The translations under genes were made by a program, and so were the position numbers. Source: Phycisphaerales bacterium (GTDB lineage: Bacteria > Planctomycetota > Phycisphaerae > Phycisphaerales > UBA1924). Taken from it: a stretch of 64,000 nt of DNA. Below the pieces are notes generated by a model, which was not told where the DNA came from, ran no database searches, and was given only the letters and a program-made list of their open reading frames with translations. Location of the stretch: NCBI GenBank assembly GCA_044222255.1, contig JBGANP010000007.1, positions 2,327 through 66,326 on the forward strand. The letters are read 5' to 3'. Numbering within the stretch: position 1 is the stretch's first letter; each line of letters starts with the position of its first letter. Shown here in pieces: positions 19,357-25,684 of the stretch.

Positions 19357-19692
19357 ATGGCATCCATGTACGCCATCATCACCGAAGGCGGCGGCCAGCG
19401 CAAGGTCGCCCAAGGCGAAGAGTTCCTCGCAGACCTCATCGACGGCGGCTCCGTCCAGGTCGGCAAGGCCGTGAAGTTTGACAAGGTCCTCCTCGTCGGC
19501 ACCGCAGGCGGCTCCGCCAAGTTCGGCAAGCCCTACGTCGCAGGCGCCTCCGTCACCGCCGAAGTCGTCGAAGCCGTTGTCATGGGCGAGAAGCTCTTCG
19601 TCCAGTACTTCCAGGCCAAGAAGGGCTCCCGCAGCCGCGTCGGCCACCGCCAGCGCTACACCAAGCTGAAGGTCACCGCCATCAACGGCTGA
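19357..19692 (+). CDS. rplU: 50S ribosomal protein L21
   Basis: MYAIITEGGGQRKVAQGEEF...GHRQRYTKLKVTAI. The start may be 19366. Confidence 0.9.
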   Translation: MASMYAIITEGGGQRKVAQGEEFLADLIDGGSVQVGKAVKFDKVLLVGTAGGSAKFGKPYVAGASVTAEVVEAVVMGEKLFVQYFQAKKGSRSRVGHRQRYTKLKVTAING

Positions 19693-19693
19693 T

Positions 19694-19720
19694 CAGAGGC
19701 TCGGGCGCAAGCCCGGGCAC
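19694..19720 (+). repeat. REP-like hairpin element, family A (CAGAGGCtCGGGCGCAAGCCCGGGCAC)
   Basis: 26/27 identical to 34319-34345. 8-bp stem with GCAA loop, 2 nt after the rplU stop. Confidence 0.65.
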
Positions 19721-19748
19721 GGCGACCCGCATCTCCAATCCCACCCAA

Positions 19749-19779
19749 GGCCCAGCATCCCGCTGGGCCTTGTTTATTT
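19749..19779. terminator. intrinsic terminator between convergent genes
   Basis: GGCCCAGC-loop-GCTGGGCC followed by TTGTTTATTT. Confidence 0.7.
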
Positions 19780-19787
19780 GACGCGTA

Positions 19788-21302: not shown

Positions 21303-22040
21303 TCACCGCCTCCGCCGCGCCGCCGCCGCCAGCCCGATCCCCACCAGCACGATCGCCCCCGGCTCGGGAATCGTCCGTACCCGGTAGTTGTCAAAGTACC
21401 CCTCATCCGCAGACGTATTAAACGTTGCCACCTGCACATCCGCGTGGCTCATGCCCGGCGAAAACACACTCGTCATCGCCAGCCCCGTACCCGTCGGCAC
21501 CCCGTCGATCAGCAGTGCCCACGTGTGGTTCGTGAAGTTCAACTGCATCTCGAAGTGAACCCACTGCATCGGCGCGTACACGATCGGGTTGGCCGGCGCG
21601 GTCCCCGTCACCAATGTCCGCACCGCCCTGATGGTGTTGCCATCGCGCCCAAGCCCCGCCCTCGCAACGCGCTGCCCATCCAGCCCGTACACATCGATCA
21701 GATACCCGAAGCTCGGCGACATGCCCCCGGTCGTCCGCGCGATGTCGCACTCGATGGAGAGCAGTTCGCCAACTCCCGGCACATAATCAATCTTCGGGAA
21801 GAACCTGTTGTTCGTGACATCGCTCCCCACACGCACCGCCTGCGCGCCCTCGCTCGCCACCGATGATTGCACCGTCGCAGTGTTTGCCGTCACGCGGTCC
21901 GCGTACCAGTCGTTCTGCCCCGCGAGCTTTCCGGTCGAGTAGTACGGCGCCTCAAACCCCTTCGCGTCAAACAACACCGTCGCGCGCGCGGACGCGGCCA
22001 CTCCCACCATGACCAAAGCTCCCAGCGCCCACAACCGCAT
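21303..22040 (-). CDS. PEP-CTERM sorting-domain secreted protein
   Basis: Signal MRLWALGALVMVGVAASARA. C-terminus IPEPGAIVLVGIGLAAAARRRR. Confidence 0.75.
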   Translation of the reverse strand: MRLWALGALVMVGVAASARATVLFDAKGFEAPYYSTGKLAGQNDWYADRVTANTATVQSSVASEGAQAVRVGSDVTNNRFFPKIDYVPGVGELLSIECDIARTTGGMSPSFGYLIDVYGLDGQRVARAGLGRDGNTIRAVRTLVTGTAPANPIVYAPMQWVHFEMQLNFTNHTWALLIDGVPTGTGLAMTSVFSPGMSHADVQVATFNTSADEGYFDNYRVRTIPEPGAIVLVGIGLAAAARRRR

Positions 22041-22358
22041 CCCGCTCTCCTTCCTCCACACCGGCGCGCTACATCACCGCGGCCCAAAGCCGCAACACCA
22101 ACGCACCGAAGTCGAGGGCTCTCTTCTCAACTCCCGCCCGACAAAGCCGGGCCTCTCGCAAGTGTGTCCGATCCCGGTGCTCCGTCAAGCCCCCCAAGTT
22201 CCCATTTCAATCTGATTGCGATTTCACGGGCTTGCCGTGGCCATTTCCGCACGCCTTGGACCGAAAACATCCACACGAGCGCACATAACCGCCCCCGCAA
22301 CAAAAAGCGGCACGTCTCCATCGCAACATCACTTTTCGCCTCCCAACGCACTCAGAGA

Positions 22359-22901
22359 TCAGAACAGCTTCTGCTGGTCCTTCAGTTCCTTCGGCCGCGC
22401 ATCCAGATCGCGCAGCTCCTGCACAAACTGCCCCACATTCTCGAACTGATAGTGCTCGCTCGCGAACCGCACATACGCGACCTTGTCCAGCGCGGCCAGC
22501 TTCTGCATCACCCGCTCACCGATCGCGCTCGACGGCGCTTCCCGATCAAACTCGCGATACAACTCCTCCTCCACCTCATCCACCAGTTGCCGCTTCGCCT
22601 GCTCGGAAACCGGCCGCTTTCCGCACGCCGCCAGCACGCCCTTCAGCACGTTCTCCCGATTGAACGGCACCCGCGTCCCATCCCGCTTCACCACCATCAG
22701 CCGCGCCGTCTCCTCAACCTTCTCGTACGTCGTGAACCGCCGCTCGCACTTCAGACACTCGCGCCGACGCCGCACCACCCGCCCCCCATCGCTGGCGCGG
22801 CTGTCGATCACCTTGTCGTCGTTATGCCCGCAATACGGACAGATCACTTCGCGTACCTCATTGACCGCCCGCAGCAGCCGACAAGGCCGCAAGCAAGGCA
22901 T
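22359..22901 (-). CDS. nrdR: transcriptional repressor NrdR
   Basis: Zinc ribbon CPYCGHNDDKVIDSR...CLKCERRFTTYE plus ATP-cone. The start is ATG 22901 or an internal GTG near 22847. Confidence 0.88.
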   Translation of the reverse strand: MPCLRPCRLLRAVNEVREVICPYCGHNDDKVIDSRASDGGRVVRRRRECLKCERRFTTYEKVEETARLMVVKRDGTRVPFNRENVLKGVLAACGKRPVSEQAKRQLVDEVEEELYREFDREAPSSAIGERVMQKLAALDKVAYVRFASEHYQFENVGQFVQELRDLDARPKELKDQQKLF

Positions 22902-23155
22902 GGGTAGTGTCGCCGATCGGCGCGGCCGCGTCAAACAGGATTCTGCCTTCCGCACGGAGTGCGCACGATCGTTGACGGTGGCGCAGCGACGCTCTGGGAG
23001 CAAGCCACCGGTGCGCAGCCACCATTTCCCTTCTTTCTACTACTTTTCCGCCCGGCGGAGGGCGGACGACTTGGACGCCCAACGTGCCCGGGCATCACCA
23101 AACTAGAGTCAAACCTCACCAAACCCCCCTTTCCACTTTCGCCTATACTCCGCCC

Positions 23156-23206
23156 ATGAACGGCCAGACGACGACGACAACCACTCTCCCAGCACACAGC
23201 GGCTAG
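23156..23206 (+). CDS. candidate thrS leader peptide, MNGQTTTTTTLPAHSG
   Basis: ATG AAC GGC CAG ACG ACG ACG ACA ACC ACT CTC CCA GCA CAC AGC GGC TAG. Six consecutive Thr codons, 27 nt upstream of a terminator hairpin and 127 nt upstream of the thrS ATG. TATACT hexamer 6 nt before the ATG. Confidence 0.55.
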   Translation: MNGQTTTTTTLPAHSG

Positions 23207-23232
23207 CCGGCCCGCTGCCCCTCTGTCCTCCC

Positions 23233-23259
23233 AAAGCCCGGCACCACGCCGGGTTTTTT
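23233..23259 (+). terminator. intrinsic terminator / candidate attenuator upstream of thrS
   Basis: AAAGCCCGGC-ACCAC-GCCGGGTTTTTT (GC stem plus T6 tract). Confidence 0.7.
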
Positions 23260-23288
23260 CATTTCGCCCCGTACCATCCCGCCCCTCC

Positions 23289-23324
23289 GATTTGCCCTTT
23301 GCTATTTGCCCATTTGCTATTTGG
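23289..23324 (+). promoter_or_regulatory. ATTTGC-type short direct repeats in the thrS 5' UTR
   Basis: GATTTGCCCTTTGCTATTTGCCCATTTGCTATTTGG. The 11-mer TTTGCTATTTG occurs twice (23298, 23313), ending 9 nt before the thrS ATG. Confidence 0.35.
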
Positions 23325-23332
23325 ATCCCCCT

Positions 23333-25684
23333 ATGCCCCGCATCACCCTCCCCGATGGCTCCGTCAAAGAGTTCCCCGCACCCGTCACCGCTCGCCAGGT
23401 CGCCGAGTCCATCGGCCCGCGCCTCGCCATGGCCGCCGTCGGCGCCAAGATCAACGGCGAGATCCGCGACCTCAGCACCGTCATGTCCGATGACGCCGCG
23501 CTCGCCATCATCACTCCCACCACCCGCGACAAGAAGCCCGACCCGGATGCCCTCTTCCTCATCCGCCACTCCGCGGCCCACGTCATGGCCGAAGCCATCC
23601 AGCGCATCGTCCCCGGTGCGCAACTCGTCTACGGCCCCGCGCTCGAAGACAAGTTCTACTACGACATCAAGTTCCCCGACAACCGCCCGCTCAAAGACGG
23701 CGACTTCGCGGCCATCGAAGCCGAGATGAAGAAGATCATCGCGGAGGATCGGCCTTTCACCCGCTACGAAGTCAGCGGGCCAGATGGGCTCTCGCGATTG
23801 CAGCGAGAGGGAAACAAATACAAAGTCGACAACGCAGAAAAGGCACTTGGTCTCCCAAGCAGTGTCTACAAGTCCGCGGCCCCCGCGCCTGCCAAGAAGC
23901 CAATCACAATCGGAGATCTGGCATCTGCCGCCAAGGTTCATGCAGCAGACATCATCAAGCGGTTTTTTCTCCAAGGGGAACTCGCCACGGTCCACACCGT
24001 CCTCGACCACGAAAAGGCCCAACAGGTCGCCCGGGATCTCGGCATCACTCTCGATGGCGTGAAGCGCTCCGAAGATCTGTCCTTCTACGCCACCGGCACC
24101 CCCGGCCAAAACTGGGAAGACCTCTGCCGCGGCCCCCACGTCCCCAGCACCGGCCGCATCGGCGCCGTCAAAGTCATGTCCCTCGCCTCGAGCTATTGGC
24201 ACGGCGATGAAAACTCCGACCGCCTCACCCGCGTCTACGGCACCGCCTTCGCCACCCAAGCCGATCTCGACGCCTTCCTGAAGCAGAAGGAAGAGGCCTC
24301 CGCCCGCGACCACCGCGTCATCGGCAAGCAACTCCGTCTCTTCCACATCGATGAAACCGTCGGCCAGGGCCTCATCCTCTGGACCCCCAACGGCTCCATC
24401 ATCCGCAAGGAACTCCAGAACTTCATCGGCGCCGAGCTGCGCAAGCAGGGCTACACCGAGGTCTTCACCCCGCACATCGGCTCTCTCGACCTCTACAAGA
24501 CCTCCGGCCACTTCCCCTATTACAAAGACGCCCAGTTCCCGCCGATCATCGAGCGACAGACTCTCGACGCCCTCTGCGCCGATGGCTGCAGCTGCGCCGA
24601 CGTCATGCGCCGCGTCGAGGGCGTCTCCCAACGCCTTGCCGACGGCATCAACGAACGCACCAAGGCCACCACCATCGCCACCGACCGCATCATGCCCGAC
24701 GATCAACTCGTCCAAGGCTTCATGCTCAAGCCCATGAACTGCCCGCACCACGCCAAGATCTTCGGCTCCGCTCCGCACTCCTACCGCGACATGCCCGTCC
24801 GCCTCGCCGAGTTCGGCACCGTCTACCGCTGGGAGCAATCCGGCGAACTCAACGGCATGACCCGCGTCCGCGGCTTCACTCAGGATGATGCCCACCTCTT
24901 CTGCACCGAGGACCAGATCCCCGGCGAGATTCAGGGCTGCCTCTCCCTCGTCAAAACCATCTTCAACATCCTCGGCATGAAGGACTACCGCGTCCGCGTC
25001 GGCCTCCGCGACCCCGACTCCTCTAAGTACACCGGCGCTAAAGACAGTTGGGACAAAGCCGAAGCCGCCTGCATCGACGCCGCCAAGTCCCTCGGCGTTC
25101 CCTTCAGTCAGGAGCCCGGCGAAGCCGCGTTCTACGGCCCCAAGATCGACTTCGTCGTCAAGGACGTCATCGGCCGCGAATGGCAGCTTGGCACCGTGCA
25201 GGTCGATTACCAAATGGGAAACCGCTTCGACCTCTCGTACATCGGCCCCGACAACAAGCCCCACCGCCCCGTCGTCATCCACCGCGCCCCCTTCGGGTCC
25301 ATGGAGCGTTTCTGCGGCGTGCTCATCGAGCATTTCGCCGGCGCCTTCCCCACCTGGCTCTCCCCCGAACAGGTCCGCGTTCTTCCCATCAGCGAGAAGA
25401 CCATCGACTACGCCCGCACCGTCGAGGCCGCCCTGAAGTCCGCCGGCGTCCGCGTCTCCCTCGATGAGTCCAACGACCGCATCCAGGGCAAGATCAAGGT
25501 CGCCGCCGAAATGAAGATCCCCTACCTCCTCATAGTCGGCCCCCGCGACGCCGAGCAAAACGCCGTCTCCATCCGCATGCGCGGCACCGACAAAGACGCC
25601 GGCTCCATGCCGCTCGCCAACTTCGTCTCCGCCATCAGCGCAGAAATCGCCGAACGCAAGGCGGAACTCTCCGTCAAGCCATAA
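23333..25684 (+). CDS. thrS: threonine--tRNA ligase (with two lineage-specific insertions)
   Basis: MPRITLPDGSVKEF (TGS), RHSAAHVMAEAI (editing HxxxH), PMNCPHH, RVRGFTQDDAHLFC, class II core and anticodon-binding domain. ATG 23333. Confidence 0.95.
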   Translation: MPRITLPDGSVKEFPAPVTARQVAESIGPRLAMAAVGAKINGEIRDLSTVMSDDAALAIITPTTRDKKPDPDALFLIRHSAAHVMAEAIQRIVPGAQLVYGPALEDKFYYDIKFPDNRPLKDGDFAAIEAEMKKIIAEDRPFTRYEVSGPDGLSRLQREGNKYKVDNAEKALGLPSSVYKSAAPAPAKKPITIGDLASAAKVHAADIIKRFFLQGELATVHTVLDHEKAQQVARDLGITLDGVKRSEDLSFYATGTPGQNWEDLCRGPHVPSTGRIGAVKVMSLASSYWHGDENSDRLTRVYGTAFATQADLDAFLKQKEEASARDHRVIGKQLRLFHIDETVGQGLILWTPNGSIIRKELQNFIGAELRKQGYTEVFTPHIGSLDLYKTSGHFPYYKDAQFPPIIERQTLDALCADGCSCADVMRRVEGVSQRLADGINERTKATTIATDRIMPDDQLVQGFMLKPMNCPHHAKIFGSAPHSYRDMPVRLAEFGTVYRWEQSGELNGMTRVRGFTQDDAHLFCTEDQIPGEIQGCLSLVKTIFNILGMKDYRVRVGLRDPDSSKYTGAKDSWDKAEAACIDAAKSLGVPFSQEPGEAAFYGPKIDFVVKDVIGREWQLGTVQVDYQMGNRFDLSYIGPDNKPHRPVVIHRAPFGSMERFCGVLIEHFAGAFPTWLSPEQVRVLPISEKTIDYARTVEAALKSAGVRVSLDESNDRIQGKIKVAAEMKIPYLLIVGPRDAEQNAVSIRMRGTDKDAGSMPLANFVSAISAEIAERKAELSVKP

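What the first reader, a model, noticed from the sequence alone, without database searches (positions are those of the whole stretch)
23156..23332. Thr-codon-run leader ORF plus intrinsic terminator directly upstream of thrS: candidate ribosome-mediated attenuator
Seen in sequence: a 16-codon ORF (MNGQTTTTTTLPAHSG, 23156-23206) has six consecutive Thr codons (ACG ACG ACG ACA ACC ACT). ACA and ACT should be rare in this high-GC genome. Twenty-seven nt downstream lies a canonical terminator, AAAGCCCGGC-ACCAC-GCCGGGTTTTTT (23233-23259), and the ThrRS ATG is at 23333.

A short hairpin (AGCGG...CCGCT, 23198-23216) encloses the leader stop codon. GCCGG at 23206-23210 can pair with the terminator 5' arm CCGGC (23238-23242), which is a weak candidate antiterminator.

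Established knowledge: this layout matches classical trp/thr/his/pheST leader-peptide attenuation. thrS itself is known to be controlled by a translational operator in E. coli and by a T-box in Bacillus. Inference: thrS here may sense charged tRNA-Thr by ribosome stalling, which I do not know to be described for thrS or for this lineage.

A TATACT hexamer 6 nt before the leader ATG would imply a leaderless or near-leaderless transcript.
Basis: partly seen in the sequence, partly recalled or inferred. Interest (0 to 1): 0.85.

Follow-up and report, generated by a model that had tools for sequence, protein, structure and literature searches.

The report
Threonine leader-peptide attenuator of thrS
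A 16-codon mini-gene with six threonine codons in a row, followed by a transcription stop signal, sits in front of the threonyl-tRNA synthetase gene and recurs in 36 related Phycisphaerales species, so it very probably raises enzyme production when charged threonine tRNA runs short: a textbook mechanism that I found no record of for this phylum.

Summary

- **Conservation.** The window comes from a Phycisphaerales bacterium (Planctomycetota). Of 57 related thrS loci with an intact 5' end, 36 carry the same unit upstream of thrS. The unit is a -10-like TANNNT box 5-8 nt before the start codon, an 11-22-codon ORF with 3-9 consecutive Thr codons, and a GC-rich terminator 27-44 nt after the stop.
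- **Specificity.** The peptides share little beyond the Thr run. Other amino-acid runs are at background. An amino-acid-blind scan for this architecture finds only these thrS leaders. Eighteen Verrucomicrobiota/Pirellula thrS loci lack it.
- **Switch.** The RNA just after the stop codon copies the core of the terminator 3' arm and tracks lineage-specific changes in the terminator. Folding with a modelled ribosome gives antiterminator pairing when the ribosome is on Thr codons and little when it is on the stop codon.
- **Status.** Best explanation: a leaderless, ribosome-mediated transcription attenuator that senses Thr-tRNA. It is absent from Rfam. A weaker "thrL-thrS" has been annotated in Streptomyces.
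- **Caveats.** There are no experimental data, and the antiterminator in this window is weak.

Verdict: a real new member of a known kind, of moderate interest.

The parts
23144..23149 (+). -10-like promoter hexamer TATACT, 6 nt before the leader ATG. It implies a leaderless (5'-AUG) transcript.
   Evidence: Sequence. TANNNT lies 5-8 nt before an in-frame start in 29 of 32 family members, against 0.73% of all ATG/GTG in the loci. No Shine-Dalgarno-like motif lies in between. No full -35/-10 sigma-70 match was found.
23156..23206 (+). Leader ORF (16 codons plus TAG): MNGQTTTTTTLPAHSG.
   Evidence: Homologous-by-position sORFs of 11-22 aa occur in 36 species. The peptides diverge except for the Thr run and a frequent C-terminal (R)G.
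23168..23185 (+). Regulatory run of six Thr codons (ACG ACG ACG ACA ACC ACT), using all four Thr codons.
   Evidence: It is the only run of 5 or more ACN triplets in the window. Family members have 4-11 Thr. The first two codon positions are fixed and the third varies (ACC 44%, ACG 40%, ACT 11%, ACA 5%), as expected for selection on the codon or amino acid.
23162..23168 (+). 5'-proximal segment (GG.CAGA) predicted to pair with 23222-23228 (UCUG.CC). The pairing closes a multiloop around the stop hairpin in the ribosome-free RNA. It is a candidate 'region 1' (anti-antiterminator helper). Weak.
   Evidence: MFE structures. Masking this part with a modelled ribosome on the Thr codons raises antiterminator pairing from 0.02 to 0.36-0.44. 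In relatives the ORF 5' end pairs with the post-stop region better than with non-cognate partners (p=0.014).
23197..23217 (+). Hairpin CAGCGG / CCGCUG enclosing the stop codon. The GCCGG motif sits in its loop.
   Evidence: -8.7 kcal/mol. It is present in both the MFE and the centroid structure. About 15 of 32 relatives have an equivalent hairpin with quite different arm sequences, for example ACGGAUG/CAUCCGU, CACGCCUG/CAGGCGUG and GGACGGG/CCCGUCC.
23206..23216 (+). 'Region 2', the antiterminator strand. GCCGG (23206-23210) plus GCU (23214-23216) pair with AGC-CCGGC (23235-23242) of the terminator 5' arm. It begins at the last base of the stop codon.
   Evidence: 5 bp gives -7.1 kcal/mol, and 5+3 bp with a bulge gives -10.6. 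In about 27 of 32 elements the best duplex with the terminator 5' arm starts within about 6 nt of the stop codon (-1 to +6 from its first base). A copy of the element's own 3'-arm core lies there, and own exceeds cross at p=0.011.
23233..23259 (+). Intrinsic terminator AAAGCCCGGC-ACCAC-GCCGGGUUUUUU ('regions 3 and 4').
   Evidence: Energy -16.5 kcal/mol. It is the consensus structure of the 32-sequence alignment, and 5 of 8 pairs show compensatory changes. The upstream gene nrdR is divergent, so this terminator has no gene to end other than the leader. Other terminators in the window have unrelated stems.
23333..25684 (+). thrS (threonyl-tRNA synthetase, 783 aa), the regulated gene.
   Evidence: TGS, tRNA_SAD, tRNA-synt_2b, HGTP_anticodon.

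Best explanation
This is a ribosome-mediated (leader-peptide) transcription attenuator that couples thrS transcription to the supply of charged tRNA-Thr.

Transcription most likely starts at or next to the A of the leader ATG, from the TATACT box, so the leader ORF is translated as a leaderless message.

- **Thr-tRNA plentiful.** The ribosome runs through the six Thr codons to the TAG. There it covers the 13 or so nucleotides after the stop. These include GCCGG...GCU, the only sequence able to pair with the terminator 5' arm. The terminator hairpin 23233-23257 then forms and RNA polymerase stops at the U tract before thrS.
- **Thr-tRNA scarce.** The ribosome stalls on the Thr codons, at least 18 nt upstream of the stop. 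It covers the 5' end of the ORF and leaves the post-stop strand free. That strand pairs with the terminator 5' arm as it emerges, the terminator cannot form, and thrS is transcribed.
- **No ribosome.** The 5' part of the leader and the stop-codon hairpin hold the RNA in a form that leaves the terminator free to fold, so the default is off.

Shown: the anatomy, its conservation and specificity, the co-variation, and the modelled dependence on ribosome position. Inferred: the transcription start, translation of the sORF, termination efficiency, and the response to Thr-tRNA.
For: **1. Conservation and specificity.**
- A Thr-run sORF plus terminator occurs in 32 of 57 Phycisphaerales thrS upstream regions. 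Controls give 7 hits in 619 kb (0.575 versus 0.011 per kb). Runs of 11 other amino acids are at background.
- A covariance model built on the 32 recovers four further diverged members (L039, L008, L018, L014), for 36 species. All hits of 27.7 bits or more lie upstream of thrS on its strand. The best other hit scores 25.4 bits and is the rplU terminator.
- An amino-acid-blind scan for [TANNNT, 5-8 nt, start][sORF 6-35 aa][terminator] finds 1 hit in the window and 29 in the 80 loci. All of them are these leaders.
- Among 18 Verrucomicrobiota/Pirellula thrS loci, none has a Thr-codon run within ~590 nt upstream of thrS and none gives a covariance-model hit above 22 bits.

**2. Constraint is on codons, not on the peptide.**
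- The peptides differ apart from the Thr run, and the third codon positions vary.

**3. Geometry is tight.**
- Stop to terminator is 27-44 nt. The end of the Thr run to the stop is 2-9 codons.

**4. Antiterminator.**
- The best duplex with the terminator 5' arm starts within about 6 nt of the stop codon (-1 to +6) in about 27 of 32 elements. Mean energy is -15.4 against -12.5 kcal/mol for shuffles.
- Own-versus-cross permutation gives p=0.029 for 2:3, p=0.014 for 1:2, p<0.0002 for the 3:4 positive control and p=0.69 for the 1:3 negative control.
- The post-stop region carries a copy of the element's own 3'-arm core. Lineage-specific matches include L033 GCCGTGC, L050 ACCGGG with CCCGGT, L001 CGCCGG with CCGGCG, and L038/L040 GGCTGG with CCAGCC.

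**5. Ribosome-position modelling on nascent transcripts.**
- The share of the terminator 5' arm paired to region 2 is 0.40 for free RNA, 0.58 with a ribosome on Thr codons and 0.14 with a ribosome on the stop codon. Wilcoxon p is about 1e-4 or lower for Thr codons versus free.
- For the window the values are 0.02, then 0.36-0.44, then 0.10.

**6. Leaderless start.**
- 29 of 32 elements have TANNNT 5-8 nt before the start, against 0.73% background.

**7. Context.**
- The gene upstream (nrdR) is divergent, so the terminator serves no other gene.
Against: - **No experimental support.** There is no transcription start map, no 3'-end map and no reporter data.
- **The switch is marginal in this window.** The antiterminator is 5 (+3) bp at -7.1 to -10.6 kcal/mol, against -16.5 for the terminator and -8.7 for the competing stop hairpin. 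With a modelled ribosome on the Thr codons, the antiterminator beats the stop-hairpin state by only about 0.7 kcal/mol.
- **No overall stability signal.** The whole 23150-23335 region does not fold better than shuffles (z=-0.64).
- **The anti-antiterminator is not one conserved helix.** About half the family uses a stop-codon hairpin. Others pair the post-stop strand with the Thr codons or with the 5' end of the ORF.
- **Co-variation p-values are modest** (0.01-0.03), because the CCGG core hardly varies.
- **21 of 57 relatives lack the element**, so it is dispensable.
- **Borrowed assumptions.** Ribosome footprint sizes are taken from E. coli. Intrinsic termination and transcription-translation coupling have not been studied in this order as far as I know.
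Confidence: 0.8

Rival explanations
1. Same sensor (leader ORF with Thr codons plus terminator), but a different RNA logic in the window's subtype. The stop-codon hairpin is not a competitor of the antiterminator. Instead it is its scaffold. It displays GCCGG in its loop, and the loop pairs with the terminator 5' arm to form an H-type pseudoknot. A ribosome on the stop codon both melts the hairpin and hides the loop.
For: - The hairpin with (G)GCCGG in the loop recurs in about 15 of 32 elements with unrelated arm sequences. That is hard to explain if the hairpin only needed to be 'something that competes'.
- The spacings fit a pseudoknot: 3 nt (CUA), 5 bp, 1 nt, and a 20-nt third loop (sequence).
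- In the nested model the antiterminator and the hairpin are nearly iso-energetic in the window.
Against: - ViennaRNA cannot score pseudoknots, so this was not tested.
- The nested 5+3 bp antiterminator uses the hairpin's 3' arm, and it becomes the MFE for 5 of 6 modelled ribosome positions.
- Half of the family has no such hairpin.
Confidence: 0.12
2. The sORF is translated and stalling matters, but the output is not intrinsic termination. Instead it is Rho-dependent termination, mRNA stability, or access to the thrS start. The hairpin plus U tract would be only a pause or stability element.
For: - Intrinsic termination has not been studied in Planctomycetota as far as I know.
- In Streptomyces, several annotated leaderless leader peptides lack a U tract (PMC8079986).
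- A conserved tandem repeat lies between the terminator and the thrS ATG.
Against: - A canonical GC stem followed by a U-rich tail is present in all 32 rule-defined elements, and the stem shows compensatory changes.
- The distance from terminator to thrS is highly variable, 21-755 nt, and in 14 loci another gene lies in between. This rules out direct occlusion of the thrS start.
- The post-stop strand copies the terminator 3' arm, which only makes sense if terminator folding is what is controlled.
Confidence: 0.05
3. The sORF encodes a functional micropeptide, or the unit is a promoter plus terminator with no regulatory role (spurious transcript or insulator), and the Thr run is incidental.
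For: Small proteins are often missed, and the unit is absent from 21 of 57 relatives.
Against: - The peptides are not conserved apart from the Thr run and RNA-constrained ends.
- The enrichment is specific to Thr and to thrS.
- The Thr run is unique in the 64-kb window, with about 0 expected.
- Position and geometry are conserved in 36 species.
Confidence: 0.02
4. Control by direct RNA sensing without translation: a T-box-like tRNA-Thr binder, or a ThrRS-binding operator that mimics the tRNA-Thr anticodon arm as in E. coli.
For: thrS is controlled this way in Bacillus (T-box) and E. coli (operator). This is established knowledge, and the E. coli case is mentioned in PMC2965389.
Against: - Nothing in the leader region matches any Rfam family even at E<=10; the only two matches in 22000-24500 are chance hits to eukaryotic lncRNA models on the antisense strand inside thrS. 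Ten relatives give no match at gathering score.
- The terminator loops are not conserved and carry no conserved anticodon-like CGU/GGU/UGU.
- The ACN run is always in frame between a start with a -10 box and a stop.
Confidence: 0.01

Closest known systems
Classical leader-peptide attenuators of amino-acid operons (E. coli thr operon leader thrL, Rfam Thr_leader RF00506; also the trp, his, leu, ilv and pheA leaders)
   Same: A short ORF has clustered codons for the regulated amino acid. It is followed by alternative antiterminator and terminator hairpins. The stop codon lies next to the antiterminator strand. The signal is charged tRNA, read by ribosome position.
   Different: - The target is the synthetase gene, not the biosynthetic thrABC operon.
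- The run is pure Thr, with no Ile codons.
- The transcript appears leaderless, whereas the enterobacterial leaders have a 5' UTR and a Shine-Dalgarno sequence.
- There is no sequence or structure similarity: no Rfam match even at E<=10.
- The antiterminator is very short (5-8 bp).
E. coli pheST attenuator (pheM leader) and the His leader upstream of hisS paralogues in bacilli (PMC2965389)
   Same: An aminoacyl-tRNA synthetase gene is controlled by a cognate-codon leader peptide and a terminator.
   Different: Different amino acid, phylum and sequence. Those leaders are not leaderless (my knowledge for pheM).
Leaderless leader peptides of Actinobacteria: S. lividans thrL-thrS, leuL-leuS, trpL-trpS, alaL-alaS (PMC8079986); mycobacterial polycysteine leaderless sORFs (10.1101/834739)
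   Same: Leaderless short ORFs with cognate codons lie upstream of synthetase or biosynthetic genes. One is annotated upstream of thrS.
   Different: - The Streptomyces thrL has two Thr codons and, according to the authors, one hairpin without a U tract. Its termination mode was left open.
- The element here has 4-11 Thr (six consecutive in the window), a canonical terminator, and conservation across 36 species.
- The phylum is different (Planctomycetota).
thrS T-box (Bacillus) and thrS translational operator (E. coli)
   Same: The same gene is regulated, with the same physiological logic: more ThrRS when tRNA-Thr charging or ThrRS is limiting.
   Different: Those act through direct binding of uncharged tRNA or of ThrRS to the leader RNA, with no leader peptide. 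No T-box or operator-like structure is found here.

Membership tests
Ribosome-mediated (leader-peptide) transcription attenuator | Short ORF with a cluster of codons for the amino acid cognate to the regulated gene | tested here: met
   Six consecutive Thr codons in a 16-codon ORF upstream of thrS. There are 4-11 Thr in 36 species. Only Thr is enriched.
Ribosome-mediated (leader-peptide) transcription attenuator | Intrinsic terminator between the leader ORF and the structural gene | tested here: met
   23233-23259: 10-bp stem plus U6, -16.5 kcal/mol. It is conserved and shows compensatory pairs.
Ribosome-mediated (leader-peptide) transcription attenuator | Antiterminator that is mutually exclusive with the terminator | tested here: met
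   - Family level: the post-stop strand pairs with the terminator 5' arm, copies the 3' arm, and co-varies with it.
- Window: only 5+3 bp at -10.6 kcal/mol, so it is present but weak.
Ribosome-mediated (leader-peptide) transcription attenuator | Placement such that a ribosome at the stop codon blocks the antiterminator and a ribosome on the regulatory codons does not | tested here: met
- Modelled pairing in the window is 0.02 free, 0.36-0.44 with a ribosome on Thr codons, and 0.10 with a ribosome on the stop. Family means are 0.40, 0.58 and 0.14.
- Footprint sizes are assumed from E. coli.
Ribosome-mediated (leader-peptide) transcription attenuator | Anti-antiterminator (1:2) that gives termination when the leader is not translated | tested here: inconclusive
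   Pairing of the ORF 5' end with the post-stop region beats cross-pairing (p=0.014). Masking the 5' part raises 2:3 pairing in 16-17 of 32 elements. However, the helix differs between lineages and is only 6 weak pairs in the window.
Ribosome-mediated (leader-peptide) transcription attenuator | Promoter upstream, with the leader ORF actually translated | not testable with these tools
   Only indirect evidence: a conserved TANNNT 5-8 nt before the start in 29 of 32 elements. This needs 5'-end mapping and ribosome profiling.
Ribosome-mediated (leader-peptide) transcription attenuator | Read-through responds to charging of the cognate tRNA | not testable with these tools
   Needs experiment.
Rfam Thr_leader (RF00506) or any other Rfam family | Match to the covariance model | tested here: not met
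   Nothing at the element (about 23136-23266) matches any of 4227 families at E<=10. The only two matches in 22000-24500 are chance hits to eukaryotic lncRNA models on the antisense strand inside thrS. Ten relatives give none at gathering score.
T-box riboswitch | Stem I with specifier loop, T-box sequence, tRNA acceptor-end pairing | tested here: not met
   No T-box match. The leader from ATG to terminator is only about 100 nt.

The most novel reading that the evidence does not exclude
The window's subtype would be a structurally new kind of attenuator. It would be leaderless, so that loading of a 70S ribosome on the 5' AUG is itself part of the timing. [quoted passage not shown] A single terminating ribosome would then erase the antiterminator by sitting on the stop codon. 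The conserved C-terminal Gly would serve both the hairpin and slow peptide release. If this works as drawn, it would also be direct genetic evidence for tight transcription-translation coupling in Phycisphaerales.
Probability: 0.15. Interest if true: 0.65.

Novelty: new member of a known kind. Interest (0 to 1): 0.55.

Why it matters
- **A third route to the same end.** thrS is a textbook case of synthetase autoregulation, through the E. coli protein-RNA operator and the Bacillus T-box. This element adds a well-supported third solution for the same gene, in a phylum where I found no described cis-regulatory RNA of this type.
- **A new RNA family.** It defines a compact family (covariance model, 36 species) that is not in Rfam. 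It can be used to annotate Phycisphaerales genomes and to correct 'hypothetical small protein' calls.
- **Biological implications.** It implies coupled transcription and translation and leaderless initiation in this order.
- **A small test system.** It offers a roughly 110-nt unit for asking how short an antiterminator can be and still work kinetically.
- **A functional lead.** In 14 relatives it also places an uncharacterised zinc-ribbon protein (DUF6487) under Thr-tRNA control together with thrS.

Tried and rejected
- **Rfam.** A permissive scan of the window and a gathering-score scan of 10 relatives gave nothing relevant.
- **Sigma-70 consensus scan.** No full -35/-10 promoter was found. 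Aligning on the ATG showed no conserved -35 either; only the -10 box with a preceding GCC is conserved.
- **Whole-region folding.** The z-score is unremarkable (-0.64), so the case does not rest on stability.
- **Covariation of the stop hairpin.** MAFFT alignments A1 and A2 put the post-stop motif and the hairpin arms out of register between lineages. I therefore did not run column-based pair counts on the stop hairpin or the antiterminator. I used alignment-free own-versus-cross duplex and common-substring tests instead.
- **Stop-hairpin stability across the family.** It is no better than shuffles (-13.0 versus -12.5 kcal/mol). Only its position and its covarying arms in about 15 members argue for it.
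- **Covariance-model hit at window 19611-19780.** At 25.4 bits it is the 3' end of rplU plus its terminator, not a second leader.
- **DUF6487 in the window.** A search for the gene that follows the leader in relatives found none.
- **Literature.** Searches for thrS with classical attenuation, or for Planctomycetes leader peptides, found no direct precedent. Lopatovskaya et al. 2010, a survey of attenuation of aminoacyl-tRNA synthetase genes, is not held and could not be checked.
- **Not done.** I did not run wider collection scans (metagenomes, protein databases), because 36 species already settle conservation.
Full report
**What is in the sequence.**
- The + strand between the divergent nrdR gene and thrS holds, in order:
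  - TATACT (23144-23149);
  - six bases;
  - an ATG-initiated 16-codon ORF, MNGQTTTTTTLPAHSG (23156-23206), whose Thr codons ACG ACG ACG ACA ACC ACT lie at 23168-23185;
  - a hairpin CAGCGG/CCGCUG (23197-23217) that encloses the TAG;
  - a canonical terminator AAAGCCCGGC-ACCAC-GCCGGGUUUUUU (23233-23259).
- nrdR encodes Zn_ribbon_NrdR plus an ATP-cone and starts near 22847 on the minus strand. thrS has its ATG at 23333 and encodes a 783-aa protein with TGS, SAD, class-II core and anticodon-binding domains.
- The Thr run is the only run of five or more ACN triplets on either strand of the 64-kb window, against 0.06 expected.
- ACA and ACT are each about 8% of Thr codons in the window's long ORFs.
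- The combination of a -10 box, a short ORF and a terminator occurs only here in the window.
- Because nrdR is divergent, the terminator has no upstream gene to terminate other than the leader itself.

**Where the window comes from, and conservation.**
- Back-translated ThrRS peptides retrieved 80 loci from one genome per species. The close ones are Phycisphaerales (Planctomycetota). The tail is Verrucomicrobiota/Opitutae and Pirellula.
- In 57 loci, counting the window, the ThrRS N-terminus (MPxITLPDG...) could be placed.
- A simple rule was applied: three or more consecutive ACN codons inside an ORF of at most 45 codons, with a GC-rich hairpin plus T-rich tail within 130 nt of the stop.
  - It is met within 1 kb upstream of thrS in 32 of the 57.
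  - It is met 7 times in 619 kb of control sequence from the same loci (0.575 versus 0.011 per kb).
  - The same rule for Ala, Pro, Gly, Arg, Ser, Val, Leu, Asp, Glu, His or Gln runs gives background rates upstream of thrS.
- A covariance model built from the 32 (A1, R1) scores them at 47-101 bits.
  - It also finds four diverged or more distant members that the rule missed: L039 at 51 bits, L008 at 43, L018 at 42 and L014 at 28.
  - The best hit anywhere else is 25 bits, at the rplU terminator.
- An amino-acid-blind scan of all 80 loci, both strands, looked for [TANNNT, 5-8 nt, ATG/GTG][ORF 6-35 aa][strong terminator within 70 nt]. It returns 29 hits, and every one is a thrS leader.
- Among the 18 Verrucomicrobiota/Pirellula loci, none has a Thr-codon run within ~590 nt upstream of thrS and none gives a model hit above 22 bits.
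- No Rfam family matches the leader in the window or in ten relatives.

**What is conserved, and what that says.**
- The peptides are 11-22 residues and differ almost everywhere except the Thr run and a frequent C-terminal (R)G. Examples are MSQPTTTTTPTSRRG, MSRTPLTTTTTTPG, MDSTRTSTPTTTTTTTTSVVRG and MSKTTTTTGTTTTPL.
- Within the runs the first two codon positions are fixed and the third varies: ACC 44%, ACG 40%, ACT 11%, ACA 5%. In thrS itself the split is 63/28/6/3. That is the signature of selection on codon identity, not on an RNA motif or a folded peptide.
- The geometry is tight. The end of the Thr run lies 2-9 codons before the stop, most often 6-7. The stop lies 27-44 nt before the terminator stem.
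- A TANNNT hexamer, usually preceded by GCC, ends 5-8 nt before an in-frame start in 29 of 32 elements, against 0.73% of all ATG/GTG in the loci. The few bases in between are C-rich, with no Shine-Dalgarno motif. This places the transcription start at or next to the A of the ATG, so the leader is most likely leaderless. This is an inference.
- The terminator stem keeps a GCCCGGC/GCCGGGC core across the family. Its lower pairs show compensatory changes in 5 of 8 pairs. Other terminators in the window have unrelated stems. This suggests that the stem sequence is constrained by something more than hairpin formation.

**The switch: antiterminator strand.**
- The stretch that starts at or just after the stop codon is the partner of the terminator 5' arm.
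- In about 27 of 32 elements the best duplex with the terminator 5' arm starts within about 6 nt of the stop codon (-1 to +6 from its first base). Mean energy is -15.4 kcal/mol, against -12.5 for shuffled strands.
- This stretch carries a copy of the core of its own terminator 3' arm. The mean longest common substring is 5.09 nt, against 3.3-3.9 nt in control segments. Own versus non-cognate terminators gives p=0.011.
- Where a lineage has an unusual terminator, the post-stop strand follows it:
  - L033 has GCCGTGC opposite GCACGGC;
  - L050 has ACCGGG opposite CCCGGT;
  - L001 has CGCCGG opposite CCGGCG;
  - L038/L040 have GGCTGG opposite CCAGCC.
- An alignment-free permutation test of duplex energies gives p=0.029 for this 2:3 pairing. 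It gives p=0.014 for pairing of the ORF 5' end with the post-stop strand (1:2), p<0.0002 for the terminator arms as positive control, and p=0.69 for the ORF 5' end against the terminator 5' arm as negative control.

**The switch: two flavours of anti-antiterminator.**
- In about 15 members, including the window, a hairpin with variable arms encloses the stop codon and shows (G)GCCGG in its loop. Most of these also have CGGCC/CCGGCC at codons 2-4.
- In others (for example L007, L017, L029, L036, L043) the post-stop strand pairs with the Thr codons or with the start of the ORF, as in the classical design.

**Ribosome-position modelling.**
- I folded each nascent leader up to the terminator loop, before the 3' arm exists. 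I blocked the bases a ribosome would cover, from 12 nt upstream of the P-site codon to 12 nt downstream of the first base of the A-site codon. These are E. coli dimensions and are an assumption.
- The measure was the share of the terminator 5' arm paired to the post-stop strand. Family means are 0.40 without a ribosome, 0.58 with the ribosome on the first, middle or last Thr codon, and 0.14 with it on the stop codon. Wilcoxon p is about 1e-4 or lower for Thr codons versus free, with 16-17 elements up and 1-2 down.
- In the window the values are 0.02 free, 0.36-0.44 on Thr codons and 0.10 on the stop codon.
- Energies in the window:
  - terminator -16.5 kcal/mol;
  - stop hairpin -8.7;
  - antiterminator -7.1 for 5 bp, or -10.6 for GCCGG (23206-23210) plus GCU (23214-23216) with AGC-CCGGC (23235-23242).
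- With a ribosome on Thr codons the antiterminator is the minimum-energy fold for five of six positions, but by only about 0.7 kcal/mol. The window's switch is therefore in the expected direction but marginal. The argument rests on the family, not on this one sequence.

**Mechanism proposed.**
- Thr-tRNA plentiful: the ribosome reaches the TAG and hides the post-stop strand, the terminator forms, and there is no thrS mRNA.
- Thr-tRNA scarce: the ribosome waits on the Thr codons, covers the 5' end of the ORF and leaves the post-stop strand free. The strand pairs with the terminator 5' arm and thrS is transcribed.
- No ribosome: the 5' part and the stop hairpin hold the leader so that the terminator folds.
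- The frequent C-terminal Gly (GGN) is explained at least in part by the hairpin arm (GGG pairs with CCC). It might also slow peptide release and prolong masking of the strand. This last point is speculation from general knowledge.
- Alternative for the window's subtype: the hairpin presents GCCGG for a pseudoknot with the terminator arm. The spacings fit, but I could not score it.

**Comparison with what is known.**
- The logic is that of the classical thr, trp, his and pheST attenuators.
- Synthetase genes under leader-peptide control are known: pheST in E. coli, and a His leader upstream of hisS paralogues in bacilli (PMC2965389).
- Leaderless leader peptides are known in Actinobacteria, including an annotated thrL upstream of thrS in Streptomyces lividans. 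That one has two Thr codons and, in the authors' words, unclear termination (PMC8079986). The mycobacterial polycysteine sORFs are a further example (10.1101/834739).
- I found no report for Planctomycetota. I could not read the 2010 survey by Lopatovskaya et al..
- The element is not a member of Rfam Thr_leader or of the T-box family.
- I therefore rate it a new member of a known kind: a clean, well-conserved and so far uncatalogued family, but not a new principle.

**Limits.**
- There are no expression data.
- Intrinsic termination, leaderless initiation and transcription-translation coupling are assumed for this order.
- Co-variation statistics are modest, because the CCGG core is nearly invariant and many species are related.
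- 21 of 57 relatives lack the element, including some close ones (L048, L058, L051), so it has been lost repeatedly.

Noticed in passing
window 23290-23323: A tandem repeat of ATTTGCC/ATTTGCT (period 7-8, 4.7 copies; as a 15-mer, 2.3 copies at 95% match) sits directly before the thrS ATG, which has no Shine-Dalgarno motif. The same motif occurs at the same place in the closest relatives L021 and L027. Other short U-rich tandem repeats occur there in L010 (GCTTTCC), L023 and L024 (TTTAGCC). It could be a second control layer, such as a translation enhancer, a standby site or a protein-binding site. Its role is unknown.
   Followed up: partly
L021:811-1041, L027:2193-2426, L074:2209-2439, L010:1117-1338 and 10 further loci: In 14 relatives a small CxxC...CxxC zinc-ribbon protein of about 77-90 aa (Pfam DUF6487, E=1e-7) lies between the Thr leader/terminator and thrS, or directly upstream of thrS. 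The leader there controls a DUF6487-thrS operon. No copy is found in the 64-kb window.
   Followed up: partly
window 23900-24046 (ThrRS residues 190-238): The ThrRS of this clade is long (783 aa). It carries an insertion between the TGS and SAD domains that matches the IF2_N domain (PF04760, E=2e-6).
   Followed up: no
window 22359-22847, minus strand: nrdR (Zn_ribbon_NrdR plus ATP-cone) is transcribed divergently from the leader. The roughly 300-nt divergent intergenic region must hold both promoters.
   Followed up: partly
window 19357-19692 and 19746-19772: rplU (ribosomal protein L21) is followed by a strong terminator, CAAGGCCCAGC-ATCCC-GCTGGGCCTTG. This gave the best false-positive hit of the leader covariance model (25.4 bits).
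   Followed up: yes
L018:2294-2439; L014:2002-2150: These are degenerate family members in which the Thr run is broken up: MILQAITTRTRSNTDPCG in L018 and MDPHPNTTMTTETNRSG in L014. The terminator and geometry are kept. They may be decaying or retuned versions.
   Followed up: partly
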